64,000 bases of DNA, from the NCBI GenBank assembly GCA_900546695.1, contig URDX01000007.1, positions 331 to 64,330 on the forward strand, in the 5' to 3' direction. Position 1 is the first letter of the stretch. Every line of letters starts with the position of its first letter. Positions 2,108-40,151 of the stretch are shown piece by piece. The notes under the pieces are model-generated. The model saw nothing but the letters and a program-made list of their open reading frames with translations. It did not search any database and was not told the DNA's origin. This DNA is from an uncultured Eubacteriales bacterium (lineage in GTDB: Bacteria > Bacillota > Clostridia > Oscillospirales > CAG-272). The position numbers were made by a program, and so were the translations under genes.

Positions 2108-2275
2108 TGACGCAGGCAGGAAATGCGGGTGACCGCGACCGAAGGAGTAACACTCTCAGGTGCAATTAAATGCGAAGACTGTCTGCCGACGGCACTTTGG
2201 AGAATCCCGCCGACGGCGGGTGCCGAAGGGGCAAAGCGCACCGCGCGAATCTCTCAGGCAAAAGGACAAAGCTGT
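2108..2275 (+). promoter_or_regulatory. tandem glycine riboswitch in the leader of the symporter gene
   Basis: Aptamer 2 (2206-2272) reads GGAGAAtcccgccgacggcgggtGCCGAAGGGGCAAagcgcaccgcgcgaatCTCTCAGGCAAAAGGAC. This matches the remembered glycine-aptamer core (GGAGAG..ACCGAAGGGGCAA..CUCAGGCAAAAGGAC). A more degenerate aptamer 1 (ACCGAAGGAGTAA..CTCTCAGG) lies at about 2113-2190. The element sits ~150 nt upstream of an alanine/glycine symporter gene. Confidence 0.8.
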
Positions 2276-2424
2276 TTTTCCGCATTGCGGGTCCCCCGCA
2301 CGGAGTTTCCTCTCGGATTTTTCTTTTGATTTTTCTTTTGAGCTTCCTTTTGTATGTTTTTTTGCAGGTCGCGATTGCCGCACCTGCATTTTTTTATTTA
2401 TTCTTTTTATTATAAGGAGCTCGT

Positions 2425-14090: not shown

Positions 14091-14551
14091 CATCCAAATC
14101 GGATAGGAGACGGTGGTTAACCGCCGTCCTCCCACAACATTCCTCCGCAGTAATTAATCGCTTCTTCGGTACTTTGAGCGGAGCTGACCTCTGCAAGCTC
14201 AACCGCTGCCTTTCGACACGGCTTACTCCTTTTTGAAGCCGGGAGCGTTCCTTGCAAGCCTCCCCGAGTAAGAACAATAACCTTCATTCCGTAACCGCCG
14301 CATCTACTGTATGGAATTCGGGTGCATTGGACTTCTTCTTGTTTGGCAGAGTCGTCCGTCCCAAGTCTGCCTTCTATGCGATTTCTGTTCGTCAGTCCGG
14401 AGCTTTGCCCGCAGAGGCACTTCTCAGCCTCTACATCCGGCTTCCTTCGGATTCCGCCTCACGACGGACACCCTTGCCTTCGGCTAATGCTTCCCGCTGC
14501 CGAGCGCATAGCGGGCTTTCAACATCGAGTTATTGCCCATGTCTGGCACAC
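14091..14551 (-). mobile_element. group IIC intron remnant, copy A (ORF-less, domains IV-V deleted)
   Basis: The minus strand starts GTGTGCCAGACATGGGCAATAAC. It contains GCAAGGGTGTCCGTCGTGAGGCGGAATCCGAAGGAAGC and CTTACTCGGGGAGGC. About 430 nt are nearly identical to copy B. The sequence jumps from ..GCGGAGGAA directly to TGTTGTGG plus a DVI-like hairpin. Boundaries are approximate. Confidence 0.75.
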
Positions 14552-18140: not shown

Positions 18141-18790
18141 CAGCCGAATCGGGTAGGAGGCGGTGACTAACCGCCTCCTACCACAACACCATGCGTACAG
18201 GTCCGTACACGGCGTTTCGATAAGTTGTTGTTTATGCCTTCTCCTTTGATGACTGCTAAACATTCTCGACCTCTACTCTCGGTTTCCAACCTACCCTCAG
18301 TCATTCAATCTTCATGGAGCAGCTGTTTTCAATCACAATCATTCACCTTTGATTTCACACAGCTTCTTATCGTCCCCCTTCCTCCGCGGTAATTAATCGC
18401 TTCTTCGGTACTTTGAGCGGAGCTGACCTCTGCAAGCTCAACCGCTGCCTTTCGACACGGCTTACTCCTTTTTGAAGCCGGGAGCGTTCCTTGCAAGCCT
18501 CCCCGAGTAAGAACAATAACCTTCATTCCGTAACCGCCGCATCTACTGTATGGAATTCGGGTGCATTGGACTTCTTCTTGTTTGGCAGAGTCGTCCGTCC
18601 CAAGTCTGCCTTCTATGCGATTTCTGTTCGTCAGTCCGGAGCTTTGCCCGCAGAGGCACTTCTCAGCCTCTACATCCGGCTTCCTTCGGATTCCGCCTCA
18701 CGACGGACACCCTTGCCTTCGGTTAATGCTTCCCGCTGCCGAGCGCATAGTGGGCTTTCACCACCAAGTTATTGCCCATGTCGGGCACAC
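18141..18790 (-). mobile_element. ORF-less group IIC intron, copy B (domains I-VI present, no reverse-transcriptase ORF)
   Basis: The 5' end is GTGTGCCCGACATGGGC, immediately 3' of a terminator hairpin. DI blocks resemble (from memory) the Oceanobacillus iheyensis IIC ribozyme: GCAAGGGTGTCCGT.GTGAGG.GGAATC.GAAGGAAGC, AAGAAGAAGTCC, CTTACTCGGGGAGGC. DV reads ACGCCGTGTAC-GGACCT-GTAC-GC-ATGGTGT, with a CGC triad and a 2-nt bulge. DVI is GGTAGGAGGCGGT..ACCGCCTCCTACC. The ~170-nt DIV holds only tiny ORFs. Confidence 0.8.
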
Positions 18791-27396: not shown

Positions 27397-27482
27397 AAAA
27401 CCTCACCGTGCTTTACTGTAAATATGTGTTTTCTTGTGCTGTATCGTATATCTTTTCTATACATTTATTTTTTGCTTAACTA

Positions 27483-27716
27483 ATTATATCGCATTTTCGG
27501 ATTTTGTGTTAATTTTGACGTGAAACATATCAAATTTGTCCTGAAAAGCATTTTGATGTAAATCGCAGGAAATTTCGTGTCACTTTCGCGAGATTTTCAC
27601 ACCATATTATAAAAATCATTGCATGGCTGTCCGTTGAAAATCCCATCTTCTAATCCCCCTCCGTACAGAGAAAAACGCCGGCGCAGAAAAGGCAGCCTCT
27701 GCAGCCTGCCTTTTCA
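27483..27716 (-). repeat. ~235-bp cassette-junction module, copy 1 (terminator hairpin plus outward promoter)
   Basis: Homologous to 30903-31138 and 39822-40054. The hairpin aaaaggcag-cctctgcagc-ctgcctttt lies at 27686-27715. On the minus strand, -35 TTAACA, an 18-nt spacer and -10 TATAAT (27488-27483) point at ABC gene 25558..27396. Confidence 0.7.
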
Positions 27717-27753: not shown

Positions 27754-28023
27754 TTACTCTTGCGTCGAAAGGTCACACGACTCATCGTACAGCACCTGAA
27801 GAACATCTATCATCTTCTGCGCGGTATCCATCTCGGTTATAATCAGTTTTTCGTCCGGAATCACACACTCAAATTCTTCCTCCAAAGCTACTATTATCTG
27901 AATAAACGCGATTGAATCCATTCCGAGATCGGGCAGACTTTCGTCCAACTGCTCTACGGTTATTTCGAACTTTTCCGTGCTGTTGATGACTTCCAACACC
28001 TTCTCTATTGTAACTGTTTTCAT
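27754..28023 (-). CDS. acyl carrier protein-like protein (89 aa)
   Basis: The PP-binding helix-II signature is LGMDSIAFIQIIVALEEEFECVIPDEKL. Confidence 0.8.
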   Translation of the reverse strand: MKTVTIEKVLEVINSTEKFEITVEQLDESLPDLGMDSIAFIQIIVALEEEFECVIPDEKLIITEMDTAQKMIDVLQVLYDESCDLSTQE

Positions 28024-28050
28024 CGGAATTTTTCCACATGCAATACAAAT

Positions 28051-28188
28051 TCAATACTCGGATTGATAATTAAACACAAGTATATCACCAACATCGTATT
28101 TATCTTTCTGTTCAATAAATACTCTGTCATCCGGTAAAATAGCGGGATACATACTATTCCCGGTTACAGACACAAAATGTCCTTTCAT
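28051..28188 (-). pseudogene. truncated S24/S26-type peptidase fragment (45 aa)
   Basis: Not in the track because it is under 60 aa. It has a strong SD (aggaggcgacATG) and reads MKGHFVSVTGNSMYPAILPDDRVFIEQKDKYDVGDILVFNYQSEY*. It aligns with the N-terminal half of the 89-aa protein at 35815..36084 (GDSMLPT box) but stops before the His and GDN boxes. Confidence 0.6.
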
Positions 28189-29978: not shown

Positions 29979-30110
29979 GACAAATCCCCTTTCCGATCAA
30001 TACACATGCATTTTCGCTGCTCGTATATCTTAATTCAAAACACAAGCAACTTTGGGCAAGTTTCCTGCATGTGTCAAACAGATTACTTATTTTATCATGT
30101 GATTGAATAC

Positions 30111-30184
30111 TCGCTGCAGCTCGGGTCTGCATTGCTGCGAAAGATACGAAGATGTGAAGGATATGAAAGAAAAGACAGACCCTG
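30111..30184 (-). repeat. conserved ~75-nt spacer upstream of an ABC gene (second copy at 39307-39388)
   Basis: tcgctgcagctcgggtctgcattgctgcgaaagatacgaagatgtgaaggatatgaaagaaaagacagaccct is shared almost exactly with 39307-39388. That copy has an extra gaaggatat. Confidence 0.6.
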
Positions 30185-30285
30185 CAGTCCGCCTTTTCAA
30201 ATGAATTCCGATAACTATCCTTCGCGCCGAGCACTGTTTTTACCCTTGCATTCTGCCCAAGGTATACCCGGCACTTCCGAGATTG

Positions 30286-30696
30286 TTATTCTTTAGCTTC
30301 CCGCTCGCGCGCATCCTCGTCATACTGCGCCTCGTTCGCCTCAGCCTCGCGCGCATCTCTGTCGTACTTCGCCTCGTTCGCTTCTACCTCGCGGGCATCC
30401 TCGTCGTACTGTGCCTCGTTTGCCTCAGCCTCGCGGGCATCCTCGTCGTACTGCACTTCGTTTGCCTCGGCCTCGCGGGCATCCTCGTCGTACTGCGCTT
30501 CGTTCGCCTCAACCTCGCGCGCATCTCTGTCGTACTGCACCTCATTTGCCTCAGCCTCGCGCGCATCTCTGTCGTACTGCGCTTCGTTTGCTTCTGCCTT
30601 GCGGGCATCCTCGTCGTACTGCGCTTCGTTTGCCTCGGCCTCGCGGGCGTATCTCTCGTACAACTCTTTCTTTTTTTCCGCCGTATGCATATCCAT
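30286..30696 (-). CDS. acidic tandem-repeat protein (136 aa; about eight 14-aa DAREAEANEAQYDE repeats)
   Basis: SD aggagg lies 8 nt upstream. The sequence starts MDMHTAEKKKELYERYAREAEANEAQYDEDARKAEANEAQYDRDAREAEANEVQYDRD... It has no signal peptide or TM segment. Confidence 0.65.
   Translation of the reverse strand: MDMHTAEKKKELYERYAREAEANEAQYDEDARKAEANEAQYDRDAREAEANEVQYDRDAREVEANEAQYDEDAREAEANEVQYDEDAREAEANEAQYDEDAREVEANEAKYDRDAREAEANEAQYDEDAREREAKE
30303..30645. repeat. 42-bp tandem repeat (about 8 units) inside the acidic-protein gene
   Basis: The plus-strand unit is ctcgcgcgcatcctcgtcatactgcgcctcgttcgcctcagc, with point variants. Confidence 0.8.
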
Positions 30697-30902
30697 AACA
30701 GTACCTCCTGTTTTTACCGACCGATATTCGGCTCGATATTTTTAATACGATTTTCGGCAAGGTTCTGCTGCGAGATGTTCAAACGTCACCTCGCAGCAGT
30801 TACGAATCGACGCCGATCAAGTTATACCATGCCGTTCCCGCTGTCTGCACACAGTCAAAAACGACCTCGGTATGCCGTCTCTCCGCATAAAATCCGCCAG
30901 GT

Positions 30903-31138
30903 TGATTATAGCACAACTTTGTATCTTTGTGTCAATCTTGACGCAAAACATATCAATTTTGTCCTGAAATGCATCTTTTTGTCAATGATAGAAAATTGCG
31001 TGTTTTTTCGCAGGATTTTCACACTATTTTACGGAAATTTTTGCGCGGATGCACAAGGAGAATTCCGTCTTTAAATTCCCGTCCCCGCCGCGAAAAGCGC
31101 CCGCGCAGAAAAGACAGCCTCTGCAGTCTGCCTTTTCA
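30903..31138 (-). repeat. ~235-bp cassette-junction module, copy 2
   Basis: The hairpin lies at 31108-31136. On the minus strand, TTGACA (30935-30930), a 19-nt spacer, then extended -10 TGcTATAAT (30910-30905) point at the acidic repeat-protein gene. Confidence 0.7.
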
Positions 31139-31243: not shown

Positions 31244-32242
31244 TTAATACGATTCCCGTGCCGATATCATGTCGACGGTATCCGAAAGTATCCCTCCTTC
31301 AAGGTCGCGCATGATACGTATCTTGTCTATCATATCCGAAAGGTCCGAAGCGTTTAATGTTATAGCATAATGCAAACACCGATTCCACATTTTTTCTGCC
31401 GCAGCCGTCACCTGCTTGTAGCGCGTACTGTAATCTGCTTCAAGTCCATAATAACGCTCAAGCGTTTCAAGCCGTTCAAGCATAAATTGCTTATGTTCAA
31501 GCAACATCTTAAATGGTCGGATATCAACATCCTGTGACTCATCGAGTTTTGCAAACGTCTCAATATATCGAATGGCGCATTCATGCGCCTCTATACCGTA
31601 CACCGTAACTCCACGCTCGTCATAGTGCCACGCCGATGTCAGCAAAAGATGGTCACGTAGCTTTTCAAGAATCAGCATCGGGTTAAGTTCAAACTGTACC
31701 GACTGTGGCCGAACAGCCGCAAGCGTGCCGCAACACCCCATCCGCTCGGATGACTTTCTCGCCTTGTCAAAGCATAGCTGCGGCATTTCAAACAATGAAT
31801 ATCTCATACGCTCATCATACACAAAAATGCTGTATGTATTCTTTTCGAAGTCATACCCACAGATAAGACCGTCGTGTAGATAATGGCACATATGATATCC
31901 GGCCCTGCCCTTCATGTAATAATCATCCACTCCGCCGAAATAAACATACCACCCACGATCTATCATATTACGTATCACACGGCTGATACACCCGTCAAGG
32001 AAAGTCATAAGCAGCTGCTGACGGTCTATGTATGGATTATCTTCTATATTCGATTGACAGACATCCATGCGCAGCCTCGGCTGATCCCCCGCGAAACTCT
32101 CCGCCCGCGCCGATAAAACGAGTGAATTGTTTAAATACCAATTTCGCATACTCGGATTATTGTAAAGAATCGCTCCTATCGTACCCTGAGAATGTGATAC
32201 ACTGTAAAACGGCTTTGTTATCGGCAAACTGTTACTCTTCAT
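31244..32242 (-). CDS. hypothetical protein, 332 aa; last gene of the RiPP-like operon and paralog of 15100..16101
   Basis: Same orientation as the radical SAM genes, 158 nt downstream of them. It is followed by the module-2 terminator. Confidence 0.7.
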   Translation of the reverse strand: MKSNSLPITKPFYSVSHSQGTIGAILYNNPSMRNWYLNNSLVLSARAESFAGDQPRLRMDVCQSNIEDNPYIDRQQLLMTFLDGCISRVIRNMIDRGWYVYFGGVDDYYMKGRAGYHMCHYLHDGLICGYDFEKNTYSIFVYDERMRYSLFEMPQLCFDKARKSSERMGCCGTLAAVRPQSVQFELNPMLILEKLRDHLLLTSAWHYDERGVTVYGIEAHECAIRYIETFAKLDESQDVDIRPFKMLLEHKQFMLERLETLERYYGLEADYSTRYKQVTAAAEKMWNRCLHYAITLNASDLSDMIDKIRIMRDLEGGILSDTVDMISARESY

Positions 32243-32400
32243 TTTGTCAACTCACTTTCGTTCTTTCCATCACTTATGCAGGTAAACCCGGAATGCAAAA
32301 AAATATTCGTCTCGCGCAGATTAAAGCCACTTTCAATCTGCCTATTTGATTAATCTGTTCCAATCGGGAAAGGAATTCAAATTCTTTTCTTGATAAATGA

Positions 32401-33666
32401 CTAACGATCATCAACCATCTCCAGCATTGCATAACAAGGCTCAAAACATTTTTGACATTGTCTGATTTTAATATATTTTTTTGTGGACTCTATTATTTGA
32501 TCATTATGAAAATTTCCATGAATATGTTCATAGAGTGCATTGCTTCCCTCAACAGAGCACATCTCTTCAGGCAAAAAATGGCATGCGCGTATTTTGCCAC
32601 TGCTGGATATAACCATTGTCTCTATCCCAGACCCACATGACAAGCCTCCATTGTAAATATGTTTTTTCAAGTCGTCTTTTTTTCTCTTATATCCGTGTAA
32701 TTTCGAGGAATATGAAATTTGAATATCCAACTCATCCTTGTTTTCTCGACGCAATCTAGAAATTTCGGAAATCGCCATCTTAATTTTTTCTTTTAAAGCA
32801 TTGTTTTGATATATAGCTTCGGCTCGTCCGTAATTATCTGCAAACCCTATGATCAATCGATCTGGGTGTAACCTCTTAGCGGTATCTACAAATTCATCAA
32901 TACGATCAATTGTTGATTCACTTAACGTTAATGACAAATGTACCGAAATACCGATTTCTCGAGCAAAATCGATTGACCTCTCCAAGTTAGAATAACCATT
33001 AGCAGCCCCTGTCATTCTTTTGTATTCATTATCGTCCACCCCATACAATGAGAATTGAATTAAATACAATTTACTCAAAGACGAGGAATGAATACGGAAT
33101 TTCCACAATCGGCTCCCATTTGTAATCATTGTGAGGCGAGGTACTTTATCGGCATAAATGTCAATATACTCAATCAAATGATTGTGTAATGTTGGCTCTC
33201 CTCCGGTAAATGTCACATGTTCAACTTTGGTATCAATAACACCTATTATTTTCTCCATATCACCATCGGATATATACTTTCCCGTTGTAACCGCGGATTT
33301 ATAGCAAAAAGGGCAACGGTAATTGCAAGCTGATGTCAGTTCTATTGCAATTTGTTTCGGATAATATAATCCTTTTTCGCCCCAAAAAGTAATATTTTTA
33401 TGACTACGGCACCCCTTTGTCATAAGAACTCCGCTTTGAACAAGCCTTTTTATTCTATTCTCAACATTTTCTTCGCATTTTGTCGGTTGTGCTTGCGTCA
33501 AGCAATTTGCAATCGTGCGATTTCCATCACATAGCAGCAATATACTTATATCATCCCGATCTAGATATGCTATTGATTCGCCATAATAATCTGCTATACA
33601 ACCATCTCCGAAATAATATAGTTTTACGTTATCCCTCACTCCTATATAATAATCATAATTAACCAT
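32401..33666 (-). CDS. radical SAM peptide-modifying enzyme with an N-terminal RRE/PqqD-like domain and a reduced SPASM/twitch C-terminus (421 aa)
   Basis: The CX3CX2C motif is ACNYRCPFC at about residue 114. The N-terminus (DDISILLLCDGNRTIANC..RIKRLVQSGVL) is PqqD-like. C-terminal cysteines are SCGSG..GKIRACHF..CQKCFEPC. The gene overlaps the upstream rSAM gene by 8 nt. Confidence 0.85.
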   Translation of the reverse strand: MVNYDYYIGVRDNVKLYYFGDGCIADYYGESIAYLDRDDISILLLCDGNRTIANCLTQAQPTKCEENVENRIKRLVQSGVLMTKGCRSHKNITFWGEKGLYYPKQIAIELTSACNYRCPFCYKSAVTTGKYISDGDMEKIIGVIDTKVEHVTFTGGEPTLHNHLIEYIDIYADKVPRLTMITNGSRLWKFRIHSSSLSKLYLIQFSLYGVDDNEYKRMTGAANGYSNLERSIDFAREIGISVHLSLTLSESTIDRIDEFVDTAKRLHPDRLIIGFADNYGRAEAIYQNNALKEKIKMAISEISRLRRENKDELDIQISYSSKLHGYKRKKDDLKKHIYNGGLSCGSGIETMVISSSGKIRACHFLPEEMCSVEGSNALYEHIHGNFHNDQIIESTKKYIKIRQCQKCFEPCYAMLEMVDDR

Positions 33667-35080
33667 ATGATTCGTGATATTTCTCCTTTATTGAAATTTC
33701 TTTCGCTAATCTTGCGTATAAATTGTCATCGTATGTTTGCATATTCAAGCATAAAACTAATGAAATATTGATAATACTCCTCTGTAATTCACAAAATTCA
33801 TTGTCAGGGTGAGTTATGTCACCATTTTTCATTAGTGAATTATAATAACAATCCCCTCCGCACAAATATCTTATATCGCAATCTTTACATTGTTCGATGC
33901 TGTCAACGGTTATACCTTCAAAAAATTTAAGATTAACTTTCTTTGATGCCAAATCACCAATTATAAAGTCTGAATATCCGACAAGACTATCACATGGATA
34001 AATAGTCCCATCCGGGCAAATTGTCATTTTATTGATTCCTGCATTGCACCTTTGCCAAACTAGACTTCCAAGAATAATTCTCTTAATCAATTGTCCAAAT
34101 TGATCATTATCATTAATAATCATTCTGAGGAAGGTTAAATCTTTCTCCTTAAATGTTGCCAGTAAAAACTTTGATAATTTTTTATACTCACAAACAATTT
34201 TCTCAATACAATATTCTCCTTTGCTACGCACTAGACGTATCTGCACACTTTTAAATCCTAAACTATACAAATGATTAATTATACTAACAAAATCACAATT
34301 TTCGTTTGTTGCTGCACACAAGCCCCATATATGTTTAAATTTTTTGCTAACATTTTTATTACTTTGTATAAGCTTTATCCCCTTAACCACAGTGTCATAC
34401 GTACCTCTCCCATCAGCAAATACTCTGTTAGAATCATTATCGTCTTTTTCACCATCAAGGCTTATACCTATAGACACATTATGAGCACTTAAATATTCGA
34501 TTATTTCGTCAGTTAAAAGCGAGGCATTTGTACACAACCATATGGATATATTTTTCCCGGTTTGAGCACTAATGCTCTCACAATATTCAATAGTTTCTCT
34601 GATGATTGGGAAGCCCAACAACGGTTCGCCACCGCTCACAAAATCTATTCTGTATTGTTTCGCGTTCGGAAAAAAGTCATAAAAAAAGCAAGACAACATT
34701 TTCAACAAATTTTCTTTAGTAAATGCCCTTTCAACGCCGCCAAAGCAATCACCATGATTTCCAAAGCAATATCTACACCTAAAGTTACAACTATACACAG
34801 GGGCAAATGACAAATATGCAACGTCATTTTGAAAAATATTTTTCTTGACAATAGTATAATATTTTCGAGAAATCATACCGCAACATATTAATTCTTCAAT
34901 ATATTCATTTTCCTCATCATTCAATACTTGCCCATAAAGATATTTTTTTATTATAAAATATATTCTTTTAGTCAGTTGTACAAGCGCCCCATTTGTCAAA
35001 TTATACATATAGAAATCTTGATTATAAGAAAACAAATAATAGTTGTCTTTTAAATCATCGTTATTATTAATATACTCCAT
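33659..35080 (-). CDS. radical SAM/SPASM peptide maturase (473 aa)
   Basis: Start trimmed to the ATG at 35080 (MEYINNNDDL), with SD aggtga. The CX3CX2C motif is SCNFRCRYC at about residue 98. GGEPLL is present. The SPASM region is CNAGINKMTICPDGTIYPCD and CKDCDIRYLCGGDC. Confidence 0.85.
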   Translation of the reverse strand: MEYINNNDDLKDNYYLFSYNQDFYMYNLTNGALVQLTKRIYFIIKKYLYGQVLNDEENEYIEELICCGMISRKYYTIVKKNIFQNDVAYLSFAPVYSCNFRCRYCFGNHGDCFGGVERAFTKENLLKMLSCFFYDFFPNAKQYRIDFVSGGEPLLGFPIIRETIEYCESISAQTGKNISIWLCTNASLLTDEIIEYLSAHNVSIGISLDGEKDDNDSNRVFADGRGTYDTVVKGIKLIQSNKNVSKKFKHIWGLCAATNENCDFVSIINHLYSLGFKSVQIRLVRSKGEYCIEKIVCEYKKLSKFLLATFKEKDLTFLRMIINDNDQFGQLIKRIILGSLVWQRCNAGINKMTICPDGTIYPCDSLVGYSDFIIGDLASKKVNLKFFEGITVDSIEQCKDCDIRYLCGGDCYYNSLMKNGDITHPDNEFCELQRSIINISLVLCLNMQTYDDNLYARLAKEISIKEKYHESYG

Positions 35081-35381
35081 TTTGACCGTCACCTGCCTTA
35101 TTATCGACGATTCGTTTTGAATCCAACAGATAATCATATAGGTCTTGGATAGTGTTGATTTCAATATCGAATTCAAAAGTAATATCATACAATTCTTCTA
35201 CTCGAACAATCAATTCAACAAAATCTATGGAAGACAAATCCAAACTATCCGTGCCAACTCCATAGCCAAGATGAGTATTAAGAGTAATTGGCATCCATAA
35301 ATTATCCACTTCAAATATTTTCTTTAATATTGACTCAATATCAATTAAAAAATCCTCAACCTGAACCACGTTATTATCCAT
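35067..35381 (-). CDS. acyl carrier protein-related protein (104 aa)
   Basis: SD aaggtggag. The sequence LGYGVGTDSLDLSSIDFVELIVRVEELYDITFEFDI resembles ACP helix II. The gene overlaps the rSAM start by 14 nt. Confidence 0.7.
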   Translation of the reverse strand: MDNNVVQVEDFLIDIESILKKIFEVDNLWMPITLNTHLGYGVGTDSLDLSSIDFVELIVRVEELYDITFEFDIEINTIQDLYDYLLDSKRIVDNKAGDGQNGVY

Positions 35382-35465
35382 TGCTCCACCTTTATTTTAT
35401 ATACTTCATAAACCCATACTGTTCATCCGGATATGAAAAAATTGTTTAATATTAACATTAGTAAT

Positions 35466-35524
35466 ATTCCCCCTTCAAATTAAGAGAATAATATGTACTC
35501 AACTTTAATTTTTGAAGGGGGAAT
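35466..35524 (-). promoter_or_regulatory. strong stem-loop between the precursor-peptide gene and the ACP-like gene
   Basis: A 14-bp stem, attcccccttcaaa (35466-35479) with tttgaagggggaat (35511-35524), encloses a 31-nt loop. No T-run follows, so it is not a canonical terminator. Confidence 0.6.
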
Positions 35525-35578
35525 GTCAGCGAACATGGAATCAGTCATTAATAACATTTGACTGTTTATTCATTCCCG

Positions 35579-35695
35579 TTAGCATTTCTTATACCCGGCT
35601 GCATGCTTCGTACTCCCGGCGCAACAACAATGTGCAACAATCACAATTTCCTTAAGAAGTTTCTTGGAAATCGGTCTGCCCTTTTTGGTCTTCAT
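35579..35695 (-). CDS. candidate RiPP precursor peptide, 38 aa, Cys-rich
   Basis: Not in the track because it is under 60 aa. The SD is aaaggaggt, 7 nt upstream of the ATG (35695). Translation gives MKTKKGRPISKKLLKEIVIVAHCCCAGSTKHAAGYKKC*. It lies between the peptidase-like and ACP-like/rSAM genes in the same orientation. Confidence 0.7.
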   Translation of the reverse strand: MKTKKGRPISKKLLKEIVIVAHCCCAGSTKHAAGYKKC

Positions 35696-35814
35696 ACTCT
35701 AAACCTCCTTTCGTAACCTTTTATGTCAATCGATTTCCTGCCTTTTAAGGTTAAACCGATATAACACGCCAATCTGTAACAAATTTACACAACTGTATCC
35801 GGAGAATTTTAATA

Positions 35815-36084
35815 TTACTCAATTACTCTTCCGATAATTTTATCTACACGAACAGCAAAGCTATCCGGTTCGAGACAATTGTCGCCCTTTGTTTTTATAA
35901 ATGAATAACCATTTCTTGTGTTAATCACCTTAATGATTCGATGACAAATAATCAATTCACCGACTTTAAATACAACAATATCATCCGGATACACTTTCCC
36001 GTCTTTTACAGCTTCCACTTTATACATGTTGCCATTCTGCAGCGTTGGCAGCATGCTATCCCCTTTCGCAATGATATACACCAC
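35815..36084 (-). CDS. minimal TM-less S26B (SipW/ER-type) signal-peptidase-like protein (89 aa)
   Basis: The boxes GDSMLPT, ELIICHRII and TKGDNCLEPD match the remembered Ser/His-type signal peptidase motifs (SGSMxP, xHR, TKGDNNxxxD). GTG start with SD gaggga. There is no hydrophobic segment. Confidence 0.7.
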   Translation of the reverse strand: MVYIIAKGDSMLPTLQNGNMYKVEAVKDGKVYPDDIVVFKVGELIICHRIIKVINTRNGYSFIKTKGDNCLEPDSFAVRVDKIIGRVIE

Positions 36085-36110
36085 TATCCCTCACATTTCG
36101 CAAAAATGGA

Positions 36111-37703
36111 TCAATTTTTGGACTCAATCAGCACACGTTTATCTGCGCACTCCGTAAGCGACGGCCGATGTGTTATAAACAAAATCGTTTTGTCGCTGTC
36201 TTTAATATACCTCTCGACCGTTTTTATCGCCCTGGCATCCAGATTATTTTCCGGTTCATCCAGAAAAACAACGGGCGAATCCTTAACAATTGCACGGATA
36301 AGTGATATCTTTTGTTTTTCGCCGCCCGACAGCTCATTACCGCCGCAGGTGACCGCCCTATCATAGAGATAAGATATTTCAAATCTGTCGAGCAGCATTT
36401 TCACGGTCGAATCATCTATTGAGGGATTTGCGATTTTAATATTATCAGGAACGCTGCCGCTGAACAGATACGGATCCTGCGGAGCATAGGCAACCATCGC
36501 ACGCAGATCCGTGATGCTGAGATCCGACATACTTTTGCCGCTCAAGCTTATACTTCCCTTATAATTATCAATAAACCCCAGCAAGATTTTTAAAAGCGTA
36601 GACTTTCCGCTTCCGTTGTCGCCGCATATTGCGACCTTATCTCCTGCGTTCACGAGAAAAGACAGGGATTTTATCACCTGCTTATCCCCATAAGAAAAGC
36701 TCAGCTGCGAAACGGAAAGGTCGTTAAACTCACCGATATGCTCGCCGCCCGTGCTTTCCTCATCGTTATAAAAGAATTCGAGCCTTTCCGCGATATTGTC
36801 TATGATTGGGATCTCACGAACGATCTCGTTTATTCTTCCGATAATGGAATTAAGCACGGAATAATATCCCATCATCGCGGTAATTGCACCCAAAGAAATA
36901 TCGCCCCTCGCCGCAAGATATGTACCTACGAACAGAACAACGAGCAGACAGCCGTTATCCACAAATGAGTTTACGAATTTAGAGCCGAGGGAAAGACGCA
37001 TGCTCTTTTTCTGCGTGTTTTGAAAAAACGAGCGATAGAGCTTATCAAGGAGCCCGAGATACTTATCCCCCACCCCCATAAAAACTACATTGCACGGTCT
37101 TTCGCATATCTCCGTCTCATAGGAATGAACTCTCGATGTATACTCTCTATCCTCCTTGTGATATTTTCGCACATACTTATTGGTCAGTATGGGAACAACA
37201 AATTTCACCAGCGAGACCGACACCGTTATAACGGTATAGCTAATGCTTATGCGAGTGACGTTTATCAAAAGATAGATCAGCGTAGACGGTATGGCAAGTC
37301 CCATGGATATAACATTATTAAGCTCCTGCCACAGATCATTCGGATCCTCATCGAGCCTCACAAGCATATCACCCGCATCTATTTTTGAAGCGGATACAAA
37401 ATTCTTGCCGAGAAATTTGGATAATACCGTTCTGTCATGCGCCAGAGAATTCCTGACGAGAATTATGTCCTCGACATAATAGACGGCGGGTATGACCAAA
37501 ACCGTTATAACAAGAGCCCGCGCTAATGAAAGGACATTTTCAAGCCCGGCGGGAATATCGAGCGAAAAGACGGCATCGGTGAATTTTCCGAACACCCCCG
37601 AAGAAAACACGGACAAAACTCCGCTCAAGCTCGTTATTATCGTGTCAAGTAAAATCGGAAACCACACAAATTTAAAGACATCTCTGTATATTTTACTTTT
37701 CAC
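36111..37703 (-). CDS. ABC exporter subunit, CydC/CydD-like (530 aa)
   Basis: TMD plus an NBD with GDNGSGKST, LSGGEKQK and VVFLDEPENNLD. Overlaps the upstream ABC gene by 11 nt. Confidence 0.85.
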   Translation of the reverse strand: MKSKIYRDVFKFVWFPILLDTIITSLSGVLSVFSSGVFGKFTDAVFSLDIPAGLENVLSLARALVITVLVIPAVYYVEDIILVRNSLAHDRTVLSKFLGKNFVSASKIDAGDMLVRLDEDPNDLWQELNNVISMGLAIPSTLIYLLINVTRISISYTVITVSVSLVKFVVPILTNKYVRKYHKEDREYTSRVHSYETEICERPCNVVFMGVGDKYLGLLDKLYRSFFQNTQKKSMRLSLGSKFVNSFVDNGCLLVVLFVGTYLAARGDISLGAITAMMGYYSVLNSIIGRINEIVREIPIIDNIAERLEFFYNDEESTGGEHIGEFNDLSVSQLSFSYGDKQVIKSLSFLVNAGDKVAICGDNGSGKSTLLKILLGFIDNYKGSISLSGKSMSDLSITDLRAMVAYAPQDPYLFSGSVPDNIKIANPSIDDSTVKMLLDRFEISYLYDRAVTCGGNELSGGEKQKISLIRAIVKDSPVVFLDEPENNLDARAIKTVERYIKDSDKTILFITHRPSLTECADKRVLIESKN

Positions 37704-39282
37704 GTATGACCCGTCCTTCCCCTACCTCATAAACCGTTTTCGCAAGATCCGTCAAACTTTCCTCGTGAGTTATGATGATCGTTCCGCGTGTGCGCTCAGA
37801 GAGCAGCCTGCGAAGGATATCACAGCCGTTTTTATCAAGAGAATTTGTCGGCTCATCCAGAATCATCAGTTGTGGGTCGCATGCAAACGCCAGTGAAAGA
37901 AATACCTTCTTTCTCTCTCCGCCCGACAGACTCCCTATCGTCTGTGACAATATACCCTCGCCGATATTAAACATACCTAAAACAGCGAACGCCGTCTCTG
38001 ATGCAGCCTCATCGAGAACCATGCCAAACAGCTCCCCGGGTGTCAGATTATACGGCGGATCTTCCTGCGTCAGATAGAATATCTTGTGCGGAAAGTTGTC
38101 GTAACCGATATCCTTCGGCGCTACTCCGCCGACGCATATATCTCCCCCATCGCAGTTGACTATCCCCAGCAGCAGCCTTACTATTGTGGATTTTCCCGCG
38201 CCGTTCACGCCCCTGAAAACCGTAATGCCATCCGAGTCAATGCTAAGATCCGCTTCATTCAATATCTGCTTATCGCCTAAAGTACAAGAAACCTTCTTAA
38301 ACCGTACGTCTGTATTATCCGACAGCAGGTCGTTCTTTTTGCTTTCCGCGCCGAATCGCGACATTCTTTTCTCTGCAACACGGACAAGCTCAAATTCGGG
38401 AATCAGACCGAACATCGAGCTTACAGATGAATACAGACTTCCCGACAAAGCGATAGCCTGTATCCCGGCTTCGACGGTAATGTGCTTCGTAATAACAAAC
38501 AGCCCGACAATGGCATATGTACCGTATGTCAAGGCATTTGAAACAACGCCCGATATGGCAGTCTCCGTGCGATATGTCGCCTGAAGCCTATCGGCGATCT
38601 TTCGCATTTTGCGATGCAGAAGCTTCATCCGCCCCATAGACCATGCGGTAAGATCAAATAATTTTATCGTTGCAAAGCCGTTGTAACACTCCAATGCGCA
38701 GTTTGAAATCTGACCTTCCGTCTCCTTGCAGCTCGTATCCAGCTTCCCGCAAAAGAACCTGATATACAGCGGCGGAATGATCTGAATAACCGAAACGCCC
38801 AGCATTATGCCCGCAAGTATCGGAAATTGAATACACAAATATGTCAGATAAGCCACTATCGTGACAACGGTGGAAATAAGAGAAGGGTACAGATCTACGT
38901 ACTTAGATGTGACCTTCCCGAAATCGCTGTTTAATACTACCCCGGCTTCGCCTGCCGTAGAACGATACAAAAAATCAAGCGGAGATGATAAGTACCGTTT
39001 GTATAAAAGCATCTTGCATGTATGAAGAGAATTTGAGACCTTTTTTTGATACAGATAACCCGTAACAAGGTCAAATATATTAAACACCAAAAGAATCGCT
39101 AAAATCGTCAGGCTGTTGTTTATAACCTCGCGATAATCACCGCGTGTGGCGGAATCCACCACATCAGCCATCAATCTTGCATTTACTATCCCGATCGGCA
39201 CTGACACAAGCTTTAATAATGTCGATGCAACGCTCACGGGCTTTAAAACAGAGAAAAATATATCTTTTGTTCTTTCCATCAA
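37693..39282 (-). CDS. ABC exporter subunit, CydC/CydD-like (529 aa)
   Basis: TMD plus an NBD with GVNGAGKST, LSGGERKK and LMILDEPTNSLD. Confidence 0.85.
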   Translation of the reverse strand: MMERTKDIFFSVLKPVSVASTLLKLVSVPIGIVNARLMADVVDSATRGDYREVINNSLTILAILLVFNIFDLVTGYLYQKKVSNSLHTCKMLLYKRYLSSPLDFLYRSTAGEAGVVLNSDFGKVTSKYVDLYPSLISTVVTIVAYLTYLCIQFPILAGIMLGVSVIQIIPPLYIRFFCGKLDTSCKETEGQISNCALECYNGFATIKLFDLTAWSMGRMKLLHRKMRKIADRLQATYRTETAISGVVSNALTYGTYAIVGLFVITKHITVEAGIQAIALSGSLYSSVSSMFGLIPEFELVRVAEKRMSRFGAESKKNDLLSDNTDVRFKKVSCTLGDKQILNEADLSIDSDGITVFRGVNGAGKSTIVRLLLGIVNCDGGDICVGGVAPKDIGYDNFPHKIFYLTQEDPPYNLTPGELFGMVLDEAASETAFAVLGMFNIGEGILSQTIGSLSGGERKKVFLSLAFACDPQLMILDEPTNSLDKNGCDILRRLLSERTRGTIIITHEESLTDLAKTVYEVGEGRVIREK

Positions 39283-39306
39283 AACCGCCTTTGAAATATG
39301 GATATC

Positions 39307-39388
39307 TCGCTGCAGCTCGGGTCTGCATTGCTGCGAAAGATACGAAGATGTGAAGGATATGAAGGATATGAAAGAAAAGACAGACCCT
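39307..39388 (-). repeat. conserved spacer, copy 2 (see 30111-30184)
   Basis: Near-identical to 30111-30184, with a 9-nt internal duplication. Confidence 0.6.
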
Positions 39389-39481
39389 AAAGCCCACCTC
39401 TTTATTCGGATAGCAAGTCTCCGTGCAACCCCAGTTATTTTTTTATATCGCCATGTATTTGCCTAAGGTACATTTCACGTC

Positions 39482-39608
39482 TCAGAATACATCTTTCTTA
39501 GCTTCCCTTTCACATGCATATTTTTTGTACAGCACCTCGCTTACTTCCGCTTCCCGTGCAAAATCTCTCGTACAACTTTTCATTTTTCTCCTTCGTATGC
39601 TTATCCAT
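39482..39608 (-). pseudogene. frameshifted single-repeat homolog of the acidic repeat protein
   Basis: The same SD and start context as 30696 (aggaggtactgttATGga). It reads MDKHTKEKNEKLYER and then, after a T-run (atttt), the homologous frame DFAREAEVSEVLYKKYACEREAKKDVF* is +1. The in-frame product is only 32 aa (39510..39608). Confidence 0.5.
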
Positions 39609-39821
39609 AACAGTACCTCCTACTTTTGCAGACCGATACACGGCTCGGTATTTTTTATACGTTTTCGGCAATGTTCTGTCGCGAAATGAGCAAATGTCAC
39701 TTCGCAACGGTTACGAATCGACGCAATTATCAGGCTATAACTTTCCTCACGATTCACACTTGCGCTCTGCCACAGATGACTTGGAAGGGTATCAAATCCC
39801 CGTATTCATTTCGTTTGATTT

Positions 39822-40054
39822 ATTATAACACAATTTCAGTTTTTGTGCTGATTTTGGCGTGAAACGTATCAATTTTGTCCTGAAATGCACCTTTTTGTAA
39901 ATCGCAGGAAATCGCGTGTTTTTTTTACGGGATTTTCACACCATTTTATAGGAATCTTTGCGTAGCTGCGAGAGGAGAATTCCGTCTTTAAATTCCCCTC
40001 CCCGCTGCGAAAAGCGCCCGCGCAAAAAAGCCAGCCTCTGCAGCCTGCCTTTTC
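39822..40054 (-). repeat. ~235-bp cassette-junction module, copy 3
   Basis: The hairpin lies at 40024-40053. The extended -10 TGtTATAAT (39827-39822 on the minus strand) points at the frameshifted repeat-protein gene and the RiPP-like operon. Confidence 0.7.
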
Positions 40055-40151
40055 AGAACGCCTTCAACAGCGGTATTATTTTTCCTCGTCGGCGTTATAC
40101 TCCCCCGTCGCTGTTATGCTTCCGCATCGCCGTTATACTTTCACGTCGCCG

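What the first reader, a model, noticed from the sequence alone, without database searches (positions are those of the whole stretch)
35579..35695. Unannotated 38-aa Cys-rich ORF as the likely precursor peptide, followed by a 14-bp stem-loop
The sequence is MKTKKGRPISKKLLKEIVIVAHCCCAGSTKHAAGYKKC. It is below the 60-aa cutoff of the ORF track, but it has the best SD in the operon (aaaggaggt, 7 nt spacing). It sits in the same orientation as the maturation genes and directly upstream of them.

Its architecture looks like a leader plus a core. The first half is basic and amphipathic. It ends in IVIVA-H, an A-at-minus-1 junction that would suit the adjacent signal-peptidase-like protein. The remaining 17 residues carry 4 Cys (a CCC triplet plus a C-terminal Cys), along with His, Tyr and Lys residues that could act as crosslink acceptors.

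The stem-loop at 35466-35524 lies immediately 3' of the ORF. It has a 14-bp stem and no T-run. This fits the common RiPP arrangement in which the precursor transcript is stabilised or attenuated relative to the enzyme genes.
Basis: partly seen in the sequence, partly recalled or inferred. Interest (0 to 1): 0.8.

Follow-up and report, generated by a model that had tools for sequence, protein, structure and literature searches.

The report
Cys-rich precursor peptide of an uncharacterised RiPP
The 38-codon gene is real, conserved and under purifying selection; it is most likely the precursor of a small cross-linked secreted peptide made by an uncharacterised radical-SAM gene cluster of gut Clostridia.

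Summary
The ORF at 35579-35695 (-), its SD and the 14-bp hairpin at 35466-35524 are all as described.

- **Conserved small ORF.** Every syntenic locus has one at the same place, between a SipW/SEC11-type mini signal peptidase and an ACP-like gene, followed by two radical-SAM genes. The rSAM there is 45-76% identical to the window's.
- **Conserved pattern.** 39 distinct peptides share [IVL]-x-A-[YH]-CCC-[GA]...C(end). Ala, CCC and the terminal Cys are invariant.
- **Purifying selection.** dN/dS is 0.08 against the closest relative.
- **Signal-peptidase junction.** P1 is Ala and P3 is Ile/Val/Leu in 39/39, with P2 variable. This is the signal-peptidase -3/-1 rule.
- **Conserved hairpin.** A strong hairpin follows the peptide stop in all 14 distinct loci, within 120 nt in 12. 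Its sequence differs between loci, with one compensatory change.

rSAM1 models as a full-length CteB-like enzyme (RRE + rSAM + SPASM). rSAM2 is SkfB/PqqE-like.

The peptide has no Pfam or NCBIfam model, no source name and no literature hit. Both maturases score far below every curated family cutoff.

Verdict: a new variant of the thioether-type rSAM RiPPs, with an unusual accessory set (soluble signal-peptidase-like leader peptidase and ACP-like protein). The chemistry and the product's function are untested.

The parts
35579..35695 (-). Precursor peptide gene (38 aa). The predicted leader is codons 1-21 (35633-35695, MKTKKGRPISKKLLKEIVIVA). The predicted core is codons 22-38 (35582-35632, HCCCAGSTKHAAGYKKC). 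The stop codon is 35579-35581.
   Evidence: Sequence. The identical gene is called on 7 metagenome contigs. The family has 39 distinct members with invariant A, CCC and terminal C. dN/dS is 0.08 against L111.
35703..35711 (-). Shine-Dalgarno sequence aaaggaggt, 7 nt before the ATG.
   Evidence: It forms the strongest anti-SD duplex among the operon's gene starts, -12.6 kcal/mol. Strong SDs also precede the orthologous peptides.
35466..35524 (-). Hairpin between the precursor gene and the ACP-like gene. It has a 14-bp perfect G+C-cored stem and no U-tract. It is a candidate attenuator or mRNA 3'-end stabiliser.
   Evidence: Fold z = -4.2. No canonical terminator is found. The compensatory C:G to T:A change in L111 was read by me from the alignment. 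A hairpin follows the peptide stop in all 14 distinct loci. The mean best 60-nt dG is -23.9 downstream, -13.7 upstream and -11.9 in coding sequence.
35815..36084 (-). Mini signal-peptidase-I-like protein of the SipW/SEC11 (archaeal/ER) type, 89 aa, with no membrane anchor. It is the predicted leader peptidase.
   Evidence: Pfam Peptidase_S24 at 4.8e-6. NCBIfam sigpep_I_arch at 1.7e-13 and SipW at 3.8e-10. It aligns to human SEC11A/C across the GDSM(S10), HR(H48) and GDN(D68) boxes. An in-frame stop 3 codons upstream of the GTG leaves no room for a TM segment. It is present directly upstream of the peptide in every type-A locus with enough flank.
35067..35381 (-). ACP-like protein, 104 aa. Its role is unknown; it could be a carrier or a partner protein.
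   Evidence: Pfam PP-binding scores 22.8 bits against a cutoff of 20.8. NCBIfam ACP models hit down to 3.4e-6. The Ser of the [SA]-S-[IM]-D motif is invariant in 11 orthologues. The model has pLDDT 69, and its top 16 PDB fold matches are all carrier proteins.
33659..35080 (-). rSAM1, a 473-aa radical SAM/SPASM maturase of the CteB/ranthisynthase type. It has a predicted N-terminal RRE-like domain.
   Evidence: NCBIfam best hits are nif11 rSAM 196 bits, SCIFF maturase 182, PapB 180 and QhpD 167. All are far below their cutoffs. The closest PDB sequence is CteB 5WGG at 2.5e-39. The AF2 model has pLDDT 90.4 and a b-b-b-a-a N-terminal domain. It aligns with CteB over 454-461 columns, TM 0.72/0.79.
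32401..33666 (-). rSAM2, a 421-aa second radical SAM enzyme that is SkfB/PqqE/AlbA-like. I read a C-terminal CX13GX4C...CX2CX3C auxiliary-cluster motif from the translation.
   Evidence: Pfam Radical_SAM at 2.8e-18. NCBIfam PqqE, AlbA and StsB hits are all below cutoff. PDB hits are SkfB at 1.1e-10 and PqqE at 4.2e-9. It directly follows rSAM1 in all type-A and type-B loci.
36111..39282 (-). Two half-size ABC exporter genes, ABC529 (37693-39282) and ABC530 (36111-37703). Neither has a C39 peptidase domain. They are the predicted heterodimeric exporter.
   Evidence: Pfam ABC_membrane + ABC_tran. Orthologues sit in every cluster, upstream in the window, L111 and L114, and downstream in L006-L008.

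Best explanation
The ORF encodes the precursor of a ribosomally synthesised, post-translationally modified peptide (RiPP).

Inferred pathway:
1. **Translation.** The peptide is translated at a high rate from a strong SD.
2. **Recognition.** Its roughly 21-residue amphipathic leader is recognised by the RRE-like N-terminal domain of rSAM1, and possibly also by rSAM2 or the ACP-like protein.
3. **Cross-linking.** The two radical-SAM enzymes cross-link the 17-residue core HCCCAGSTKHAAGYKKC. The most likely links are thioethers from some or all of the four Cys to backbone or side-chain carbons.
   - rSAM1 is CteB/ranthisynthase-like.
   - rSAM2 is SkfB/PqqE-like.
   - The conserved Thr 4-5 residues after the CCC is a likely acceptor.
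4. **Leader removal.** The soluble SipW/SEC11-type mini signal peptidase removes the leader after the invariant Ala (IVIVA|H), following the -3/-1 rule.
5. **Export.** The product is exported by the ABC529/ABC530 heterodimer.
6. **Hairpin.** The hairpin after the precursor gene sets the ratio of precursor (and peptidase) mRNA to enzyme mRNA. It would do so by partial termination or by protecting a processed 3' end.

The product's function, whether antimicrobial or signalling, is open.

Shown: the gene is coding, conserved, under purifying selection and strictly co-located with these genes; the enzyme folds and families; the conserved hairpin.

Inferred: every biochemical step.

My step probabilities:

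| Step | Probability |
|---|---|
| Precursor of an rSAM-modified peptide | 0.85 |
| Thioether chemistry | 0.6 |
| Cleavage after Ala21 by the S26-like protein | 0.55 |
| Hairpin as attenuator or stabiliser | 0.55 |
For: **Conserved position and synteny**
- A small Cys-rich ORF occupies the same slot (peptidase, ORF, ACP-like, rSAM1, rSAM2) in L006-L008, L050-L053, L055, L058, L084, L091, L092, L111 and L114. The rSAM1 there is 45-76% identical to the window's.

**Family pattern**
- 39 distinct members have invariant Ala, CCC and terminal Cys.
- P3 is I/V/L in 39/39, and P2 is variable (V/I/E/Q).
- The full HMMER scan of 1.84 billion representatives finds only 22 clusters, and all hits but one (a 153-aa chimeric protein with the peptide at its N-terminus) are short peptides of this type.

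**Selection**
- dN/dS is 0.08-0.25 in close pairs.
- I counted 8 synonymous and 1 non-synonymous codon changes in the 17-codon core, window against L111, from the alignment.

**Expression**
- The peptide has the strongest SD in the operon.

**Enzymes**
- rSAM1 is CteB-like over its full length, including the RRE-like domain.
- rSAM2 is SkfB/PqqE-like.

**Peptidase**
- It keeps the Ser/His/Asp boxes of SEC11/SipW.
- A soluble SipW-like peptidase (LppS: S29/H68/D93) was shown in 2026 to be a RiPP leader peptidase (PMC13381572).

**Hairpin**
- It is conserved in structure but not in sequence, and shows a compensatory change.
Against: - There is no experimental evidence of any kind.
- No discrete RRE is present, and the N-terminal regions of the rSAMs give no PqqD/RRE sequence hit. 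The RRE is inferred from the model only.
- Both rSAMs score far below every curated maturase family cutoff, so their chemistry cannot be transferred with confidence.
- The ACP-like protein has no assigned role in the scheme. If it is a true holo-carrier, the chemistry may be quite different.
- The window's subtype (CCC-A-G-S-T-K) differs from the majority (CCC-G-x-K-R-T), so the acceptor positions are uncertain.
- The hairpin lacks a U-tract, and no 3'-end data exist.
- In LPP biosynthesis the SpI-like peptidase needs a separate RRE protein, which is absent here.
Confidence: 0.8

Rival explanations
1. The ORF is a regulatory leader peptide. Ribosome stalling at the three consecutive Cys codons, coupled to the downstream hairpin, would control transcription of the downstream genes in response to Cys-tRNA supply, as in classical attenuation.
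For: There are three consecutive Cys codons, a short ORF, a strong hairpin 55 nt downstream (0-50 nt in most relatives) and downstream genes on the same strand.
Against: - Conservation extends well beyond the Cys codons: the invariant Ala, Y/H, G/A, K/R, Thr and the terminal Cys.
- The whole core is under purifying selection.
- No alternative antiterminator pairing overlapping the ORF was seen in the MFE or centroid fold.
- Several hairpins lack U-tracts.
- The gene set (two RiPP-type rSAMs, a peptidase, exporters) has no link to Cys metabolism.
- Related rSAMs sit next to quite different Cys-rich peptides that all end in Cys. That fits substrates, not attenuators.
Confidence: 0.03
2. The peptide is the precursor of an intracellular, peptide-derived cofactor or a metal/sulfur-binding factor, by analogy with PQQ, mycofactocin or the QhpC cross-links. 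In this reading it is not a secreted bioactive peptide, and the ACP-like protein acts as its carrier or scaffold.
For: - rSAM2 resembles PqqE, and rSAM1 resembles the QhpD maturase at 167 bits.
- The ACP-like protein has an invariant Ser.
- Four invariant thiols are present.
- 29 of 39 peptides weakly match a rhodanese-type active-site segment.
Against: - Two dedicated ABC exporter genes and a leader peptidase are conserved in every cluster.
- No oxidoreductase or other client enzyme is conserved nearby.
- One relative is flanked by a LytTR/histidine-kinase pair typical of secreted-peptide loci.
- The family is rare and patchy (22 clusters at 50% identity). That pattern fits accessory secondary metabolism better than a cofactor.
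Confidence: 0.08
3. The small ORF is a real, conserved small protein, for example an immunity or accessory factor, but it is not the rSAM substrate. In this reading the substrate is the ACP-like protein or a peptide encoded elsewhere.
For: rSAM1's relatives include QhpD, which modifies a protein subunit. The ACP-like gene is equally conserved.
Against: - The ACP-like protein has no conserved Cys.
- The small ORF has the leader/core architecture, and its Cys content matches the thioether-forming enzyme families.
- No other conserved small ORF exists in the clusters.
- More distant rSAM1 relatives are each paired with their own Cys-rich, Cys-terminal peptide.
Confidence: 0.04

Closest known systems
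Ranthipeptides / SCIFF system (CteA peptide with the CteB maturase, PDB 5WGG; also PapB, nif11-type rSAM maturases)
   Same: - rSAM1 is closest to these families in sequence.
- It aligns with CteB over nearly its full length, including the N-terminal RRE-like domain and the SPASM domain.
- The precursor is short and Cys-rich.
- A conserved Thr lies 4-5 residues after a Cys. From memory, CteB links Cys32 to Thr37.
   Different: - Scores are 180-196 bits against curated cutoffs of 340-519, so it belongs to none of these equivalog families.
- The peptide matches no SCIFF or other precursor model.
- The cluster adds a second rSAM, an ACP-like protein and a signal-peptidase-like protease.
- The CCC triplet and the obligatory C-terminal Cys are not SCIFF features.
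CcpM / CLI_3235 'Cys-rich peptide' system (TIGR04065 precursor, TIGR04068 rSAM, TIGR04069 ACP-related protein, TIGR04066, subtilase; e.g. SacP23 of Paenibacillus polymyxa, Roseburia intestinalis cluster)
   Same: It is the only described RiPP-type system that pairs a Cys-rich precursor and an rSAM/SPASM maturase with a small ACP-related protein of unknown role, plus an ABC exporter (PMC10731318 and PMC4573289).
   Different: - rSAM1 scores 118 bits against the 500 cutoff for TIGR04068.
- The ACP-like protein and the peptide give no hit to TIGR04069 or TIGR04065.
- There is no TIGR04066 protein.
- The protease is a signal-peptidase-like protein, not a subtilase.
- This cluster has two rSAMs instead of one.
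Linear polyphosphorylated peptide (LPP) clusters with the SipW-like leader peptidase LppS (Nat Commun 2026, PMC13381572)
   Same: A small archaeal/ER-type signal peptidase I homologue with a Ser/His/Asp triad is encoded inside a Bacillota RiPP cluster and removes the leader. In LPP the hydrophobic residue at -3 and the small residue at -1 of the leader matter. Here P3 is I/V/L and P1 is Ala.
   Different: - The LPP chemistry (kinase-type modification, lasso-like RRE LppB) is unrelated.
- LppS needs a discrete RRE protein, which is absent here.
- That paper does not mention radical SAM clusters (one search lists 0 occurrences).
Sactipeptide clusters with two rSAM enzymes (thuricin CD TrnC/TrnD) and SkfB/AlbA-type sactisynthases
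   Same: Two rSAM genes sit side by side next to a short Cys-containing precursor. rSAM2's best solved relative is SkfB. Cys residues cluster at the N-terminal end of the core with possible acceptors downstream, as in sactipeptide hairpins (PMC12093266 abstract).
   Different: There is a single precursor gene. rSAM2 is below all sactisynthase cutoffs. The core is only 14-27 residues long and always ends in Cys.

Membership tests
RiPP precursor peptide (generic) | A short ORF co-located and co-oriented with its modifying enzymes, conserved across homologous clusters. | tested here: met
   It occupies the same slot in all syntenic loci. dN/dS is 0.08-0.25.
RiPP precursor peptide (generic) | Leader/core architecture with a conserved cleavage junction. 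| tested here: met
   P1 is Ala in 39/39 and P3 is I/V/L in 39/39, with P2 variable. An invariant CCC follows one residue later. The cleavage itself was not tested.
RiPP precursor peptide (generic) | The peptide is post-translationally modified by the neighbouring enzymes. | not testable with these tools
   This needs co-expression and mass spectrometry.
Ranthipeptide / SCIFF | Maturase belongs to a curated ranthisynthase family (TIGR03974 SCIFF, NF047865 PapB, TIGR04064 nif11). | tested here: not met
   It scores 182, 180 and 196 bits against cutoffs of 425, 340 and 519. The fold and domain order do match CteB.
Ranthipeptide / SCIFF | Precursor matches a SCIFF or other curated precursor model. 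| tested here: not met
   No such NCBIfam or Pfam family matches the window peptide or any of the 39 members, apart from a weak rhodanese-related hit and a few other weak off-target hits.
Ranthipeptide / sactipeptide | Cys-S to carbon thioether cross-links (non-alpha or alpha carbon). | not testable with these tools
   Inferred only from enzyme similarity.
CcpM / CLI_3235 Cys-rich peptide system | TIGR04068 rSAM maturase. | tested here: not met
   117.9 bits against a cutoff of 500.
CcpM / CLI_3235 Cys-rich peptide system | TIGR04069 ACP-related protein and TIGR04065 precursor. | tested here: not met
   Neither model is among the hits, even at E <= 10. The protein does have an ACP fold with a conserved Ser.
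Signal peptidase I, SipW/SEC11 (archaeal/ER) type | Ser-His-Asp catalytic boxes (SxSMxP, HR, GDN). | tested here: met
   GDS10MLPT, CH48R and KGD68N align to SEC11A/C. NCBIfam sigpep_I_arch scores 50.7 bits, just under its 51.85 cutoff.
Signal peptidase I, SipW/SEC11 (archaeal/ER) type | N-terminal membrane anchor placing the active site outside the cell. | tested here: not met
   The ORF has at most 91 codons. An in-frame stop lies 3 codons before the GTG, and the Ser is at residue 10. It is therefore a soluble derivative, not a housekeeping signal peptidase.
Acyl carrier protein | PP-binding fold with the phosphopantetheine-accepting Ser at the start of helix II. | tested here: met
   Pfam PP-binding is above its gathering score. 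The Ser of [SA]-S-[IM]-D is invariant. The best fold matches are carrier proteins, although the model has pLDDT 69 and the Foldseek E-values are only 0.05-1.
Acyl carrier protein | Actually phosphopantetheinylated and loaded. | not testable with these tools
   No PPTase, ligase or acyltransferase gene was found in the cluster.
Intrinsic (Rho-independent) terminator | G+C-rich hairpin immediately followed by a U-tract. | tested here: not met
   The hairpin is present, but no T-run follows it. The scan finds 0 terminators in 35000-36200. Some orthologous hairpins are followed by T-rich tails (L050, L114).

The most novel reading that the evidence does not exclude
The cluster may make a product by chemistry not yet described for RiPPs, in which the conserved ACP-like protein is an obligatory covalent or non-covalent partner. 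It could present the leader to the signal-peptidase-like protease in place of an RRE. Alternatively, it could carry the peptide or a thiol-linked intermediate on its phosphopantetheine arm while the two rSAMs act on the CCC...C motif. Separately, the precursor itself (helix, beta-strand VIVAY, then CxxGxKRT) may be an evolutionary derivative of a rhodanese-type active-site segment. That would make this a new protein-derived precursor class, comparable to Nif11 or NHLP.
Probability: 0.15. Interest if true: 0.8.

Novelty: new variant of a known kind. Interest (0 to 1): 0.6.

Why it matters
- **A new defined family.** The work defines a previously unnamed precursor family ([IVL]xA[YH]CCC...C-end) and its complete conserved gene set in gut Clostridia/Lachnospiraceae. 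It gives a concrete, small (14-17 residue), highly basic target for heterologous production.
- **Two open questions become testable.**
  - What do the ACP-related proteins do? They recur beside Cys-rich-peptide rSAM maturases, a pairing annotated in TIGRFAMs (TIGR04069), with no established function.
  - Are soluble SipW/SEC11-type signal-peptidase derivatives a general class of RiPP leader peptidases? They were first reported only in 2026, in an unrelated RiPP class.
- **Possible activity in the gut.** The window's exact peptide is identical on contigs from several separate gut metagenome samples, and a relative (P0153) is seen on 102 contigs. The product may therefore be an active antimicrobial or signal in the human gut.

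Tried and rejected
- **Family scans of the peptide.** Pfam and NCBIfam scans of the peptide and of 39 relatives found no precursor family.
- **Literature.** Full-text searches for the motif strings AYCCCG, VAYCCC, AHCCCA, IAYCCC and CSGDGCC returned only DNA primers. Topic searches found no description of this cluster type. The supplementary precursor list of the Mitchell-lab rSAM compendium is not held. I therefore cannot exclude that members sit unnamed in RODEO datasets.
- **First peptide search.** The first database search with the peptide alignment failed because the first sequence was under 40 aa. It was repeated with a 45-aa member first.
- **ACP-like protein.** The word-indexed search returned only 5 close relatives and no names, so no link to TIGR04069 could be made.
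- **RRE by sequence.** Searches of the rSAM N-termini gave no PqqD hit. The RRE rests on the AF2 model alone.
- **Promoter.** No convincing sigma-70 promoter lies on the minus strand between the peptidase and peptide genes. In most relatives that spacer is too short for one. I dropped the idea of an independent precursor promoter as a general feature.
- **Other small ORFs.** The 56-aa ORF at 32274-32444 and the 33-aa ORF upstream of ABC529 were rejected as alternative precursors. They are not Cys-rich and not conserved in position.
- **The 332-aa protein (31244-32242).** It has no Pfam, NCBIfam or PDB match. It is absent from several type-A clusters, so I did not count it as core.
- **Organism.** Species-level identification failed. 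The best species-representative genome hit is only 54% identical at rSAM1, in Clostridia/Lachnospiraceae MAGs.
Full report
**1. The observation**

The minus-strand ORF at 35579-35695 reads MKTKKGRPISKKLLKEIVIVAHCCCAGSTKHAAGYKKC. It is preceded by aaaggaggt (35703-35711), 7 nt before the ATG. I computed anti-SD duplex energies for 13 gene starts in the region. This one is the strongest at -12.6 kcal/mol. The next is -11.6, and the other genes of the operon range from -6.1 to -9.0.

The hairpin at 35466-35524 has a 14-bp perfect stem plus a bulged extension. The 141-nt stretch folds at -34.2 kcal/mol with z = -4.2, and none of 200 shuffles folds as well. No U-tract terminator is detected. The hairpin begins 55 nt after the stop codon, not immediately after it. 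Gene callers on public assemblies already call this exact 38-aa gene, unnamed, on 7 contigs from several gut metagenome samples.

**2. The gene neighbourhood**

All genes listed are on the minus strand, in transcription order.

| Gene | Coordinates | Evidence |
|---|---|---|
| ABC529 | 37693-39282 | Half-size exporter, no peptidase domain |
| ABC530 | 36111-37703 | Half-size exporter, no peptidase domain |
| S24/S26 protein, 89 aa | 35815-36084 | See below |
| Peptide | 35579-35695 | See section 1 |
| ACP-like protein, 104 aa | 35067-35381 | See below |
| rSAM1 (rSAM/SPASM), 473 aa | 33659-35080 | See below |
| rSAM2, 421 aa | 32401-33666 | See below |

- **Peptidase.**
  - It matches archaeal-type signal peptidase I (1.7e-13) and SipW (3.8e-10).
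  - It aligns to human SEC11A/C through the Ser, His and Asp boxes at S10, H48 and D68.
  - An in-frame stop three codons before its GTG excludes a membrane anchor. It is therefore a soluble derivative of a signal peptidase.
- **rSAM1.**
  - It is closest to the nif11-type, SCIFF, PapB and QhpD maturases (167-196 bits). It lies far below all their curated cutoffs.
  - Its nearest solved relative is CteB (5WGG, 2.5e-39).
  - An AlphaFold2 model built on 30 homologues has pLDDT 90.4 and a beta-beta-beta-alpha-alpha N-terminal domain.
  - The model aligns with CteB over 454-461 columns, TM 0.72/0.79. The predicted architecture is therefore RRE-like domain + rSAM + SPASM.
- **rSAM2.** It is nearest to SkfB and PqqE.
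- **ACP-like protein.** It passes the Pfam PP-binding threshold. It keeps an invariant Ser in [SA]-S-[IM]-D across 11 orthologues. Its model (pLDDT 69) finds only carrier proteins as its top 16 fold matches.

**3.

I searched for relatives of rSAM1 among proteins, species-representative genomes and metagenome contigs. I then scanned the DNA upstream of each relative for small ORFs. Every locus that keeps the peptidase / ACP-like / rSAM1 / rSAM2 arrangement has one Cys-rich ORF with a strong SD in the same slot. The rSAM1 in these loci is 45-76% identical to the window's.

A profile search of the 5.8-billion-protein collection recovered 38 clusters, all unnamed or 'hypothetical'. An exhaustive HMMER scan of 1.84 billion representatives found 22 clusters at 50% identity.

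In 39 distinct sequences:
- The Ala, the CCC triplet and the C-terminal Cys are invariant.
- The residue between Ala and CCC is Tyr (36) or His (3). More distant members have Phe or Ser.
- The position three residues before the cut is always Ile, Val or Leu.
- The position between tolerates Val, Ile, Glu and Gln.

That is the signal-peptidase -3/-1 pattern. The peptidase gene is present directly upstream of the peptide in every type-A locus with enough flank.

The nearest relative is L111 (MKSKKNNPIPEKLQKEIVIVAHCCCAGSTKYAAGYKKC). It differs from the window at 12 synonymous and 7 non-synonymous codons, dN/dS 0.08. Other close pairs give 0.14-0.25. I counted 8 synonymous and 1 non-synonymous change within the 17-codon core from the alignment. 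No other small ORF in the cluster is conserved or Cys-rich. The ORF is therefore a real, selected coding gene and the conserved partner of these enzymes.

**4. The hairpin**

In all 14 distinct type-A loci a strong hairpin follows the peptide stop. In 12 of them it lies within 120 nt and has a perfect stem of 9-19 bp. The sequences are unrelated between loci.

| Region (120-nt window) | Mean best 60-nt folding energy (kcal/mol) | Perfect stems |
|---|---|---|
| Downstream of peptide stop | -23.9 | 7-19 bp |
| Upstream of peptide | -13.7 | 10 bp or less |
| Coding control (inside rSAM1) | -11.9 | 10 bp or less |

The paired Wilcoxon test, downstream against upstream, gives p = 0.0006. The loci are related, so this is indicative only.

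Window and L111 share the same hairpin. Reading the alignment, I see one compensatory C:G to T:A change between them. Some orthologous hairpins are followed by T-rich tails (L050, L114), and others are not.

In most relatives the peptide gene starts only about 30-60 nt after the peptidase gene. No promoter-like site lies on the minus strand between the peptidase and peptide genes in the window. The hairpin therefore most plausibly divides one operon into two parts: a highly expressed 5' part ending with the precursor, and a less expressed enzyme part. From my own knowledge, this arrangement is common in lantibiotic and other RiPP operons. Whether it terminates transcription, attenuates it or stabilises a processed 3' end cannot be decided from sequence.

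**5. Mechanism**

The best-supported scheme is this:
1. Leader recognition, through the RRE-like domain of rSAM1.
2. Radical-SAM cross-linking of the four Cys by two enzymes. Thioethers are the chemistry of all the nearest characterised relatives: CteB, PapB, QhpD, SkfB and AlbA.
3. Leader removal after Ala21 by the soluble SipW-type peptidase.
4. Export by the ABC heterodimer.

A SipW-like leader peptidase has a precedent since 2026. LppS, with a Ser/His/Asp triad, acts in linear polyphosphorylated peptides. There the leader's -3 residue sits in a hydrophobic cleft and the -1 residue lies next to the catalytic centre (PMC13381572). That system needs a separate RRE protein, which this cluster lacks.

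The conserved non-Cys core positions are Gly/Ala, Lys/Arg and a Thr. The Thr lies 5 residues after the third Cys in the majority type and 4 residues after it in the window's type.

The role of the ACP-like protein is the main gap. No phosphopantetheinyl transferase, ligase or acyltransferase is encoded nearby.

**6. Comparison with known systems**

- **Curated families.** The peptide matches no curated precursor family, and the maturases match no curated maturase family.
- **Closest described architecture.** This is the CcpM/CLI_3235 system: a Cys-rich precursor, a TIGR04068 rSAM and a TIGR04069 ACP-related protein (PMC10731318, PMC4573289). Here the rSAM scores 118 bits against a cutoff of 500. 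Neither the TIGR04069 nor the TIGR04065 model is hit. The protease is different, and there are two rSAMs.
- **Literature.** Full-text searches found neither the motif nor this gene combination. I could not inspect the large RODEO supplementary datasets, so unnamed listing there remains possible.

I classify it as a new variant of the rSAM thioether-type RiPPs, not as a member of any named family.

**7. The wider clade**

More distant rSAM1 relatives (33-42% identity) sit beside other short peptides, and all of them end in Cys.

| Type | Example loci | Core sequence pattern | Accessory genes |
|---|---|---|---|
| B | L009, L010, L012, L013, L059, L060 | ...ASGCSGRRTKCSGDGCC | ACP-like and rSAM2; no peptidase |
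| B-like | L026, L065 | ...CGSNKTGGANTGCC | ACP-like and rSAM2; no peptidase |
| C | L014, L015, L020, L061, L072 | Twin genes with ...FCCNT...CCN.Y...GC | Three rSAMs |
| D | L016-L018 | ...GCYACQSCQCNVNDGCQTCQSCQSCNISC | A canonical-looking ACP |

The obligatory C-terminal Cys is thus a clade-wide feature that any mechanism must explain.

**8. Confidence and scores**

| Claim | My probability |
|---|---|
| The ORF is a selected coding gene and the conserved partner of the rSAM genes | About 0.95 |
| It is the modified precursor | 0.85 |
| Thioether chemistry | 0.6 |
| Cleavage at A|H by the neighbouring peptidase | 0.55 |
| Hairpin as attenuator or stabiliser | 0.55 |

Interest is 0.6. It is a sound, well-delimited new RiPP family with two mechanistically open accessory proteins. 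Uncharacterised rSAM RiPP clusters are numerous, however, and nothing here yet shows chemistry outside the known range.

Noticed in passing
window 35579-35695 and family alignment A5: 29 of 39 family peptides weakly match NCBIfam NF041203, 'rhodanese-related (seleno)protein LYCAU' (best E 1.3e-4; peptide residues 3-31 against profile positions 64-92). A profile search of the PDB puts the BH2092 protein second and third at E about 0.4, aligned as ...LSKEKVIITYC; from memory BH2092 is a rhodanese-like domain protein. The majority core YCCCGxKRT also fits the HCxxGxxR[ST] active-site loop pattern of rhodanese/Cdc25/PTP folds. The precursor may descend from, or converge on, a rhodanese helix-strand-loop segment. 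Pfam Rhodanese itself is not hit.
   Followed up: partly
window 27470-27716, 30110-31138, 39306-40055: A repeated non-coding cassette of about 250-700 nt (74-94% identical pieces) lies upstream of three different ABC-transporter operons, including the one that contains the peptide. It looks like a shared regulatory region. Its function was not examined.
   Followed up: partly
window 30247-30724 (ORF 30286-30696, -): Eight tandem copies of a 42-nt unit lie inside a 136-aa ORF (repeats of EANEAQYDEDAREA-like units). The ORF has no family match. Its N-terminus is homologous to a 33-aa ORF in the 39-kb copy of the cassette. It may be a leader-type ORF upstream of ABC593.
   Followed up: no
window 27754-28188 (-): A 45-aa ORF (28051-28188) is the N-terminal half of a second S24/S26 peptidase (GNSMYP). 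It sits next to a canonical-looking 89-aa ACP (27754-28023) and ABC exporter genes. This looks like the remnant of a second, related cluster. The same gene families (ACP, ABC593-like, the 332-aa protein) accompany 'type D' Cys-rich peptides in L016-L018.
   Followed up: partly
window 31244-32242 (-): A 332-aa protein has no Pfam, NCBIfam or PDB match, yet weak relatives recur near related rSAM clusters (L017-L020, L058, L062, L074, L082, L084). It may be an unrecognised accessory or immunity protein of this RiPP clade.
   Followed up: partly
L009/L010/L012/L013/L059/L060; L026/L065/L103; L014/L015/L020/L061/L072; L016-L018/L031/L082: Three further families of short Cys-rich peptides sit beside more distant rSAM1 relatives, and all end in Cys. 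Their patterns are ...CSGRRTKCSGDGCC, twin ...FCCNT..CCN.Y..GC genes, and ...CQSCQCN..CQTCQSCQSCNISC. None matched an NCBIfam model.
   Followed up: partly
L111 1-1926; L114 254-838: The closest relative cluster is flanked by a LytTR response regulator and a SPOB_a/HATPase_c_5 histidine kinase, an arrangement typical of peptide quorum-sensing or bacteriocin loci. Another relative is flanked by an ECF sigma factor. No such regulator lies next to the cluster in the window.
   Followed up: no
window about 35722-35775 (-), spacer between the peptidase and peptide genes: A block TGT[TA]ATATCGG...(about 25 nt)...CGATT[GT]ACATAA is conserved between the window and L111 in an otherwise diverged spacer, and it is partly palindromic. 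It could be an operator, a promoter element or an RNA structure.
   Followed up: no
window 14273-14468 and 18512-18707 (-); 2187-2279 (+): Two group II intron D1-D4 matches have identical scores (111 bits), about 4.2 kb apart. There is also a glycine riboswitch aptamer at 2187-2279.
   Followed up: no
window 21487-51001: There is an unusual density of roughly 530-680-aa ABC exporter-type ORFs, at least ten on both strands, around the cluster.
   Followed up: no
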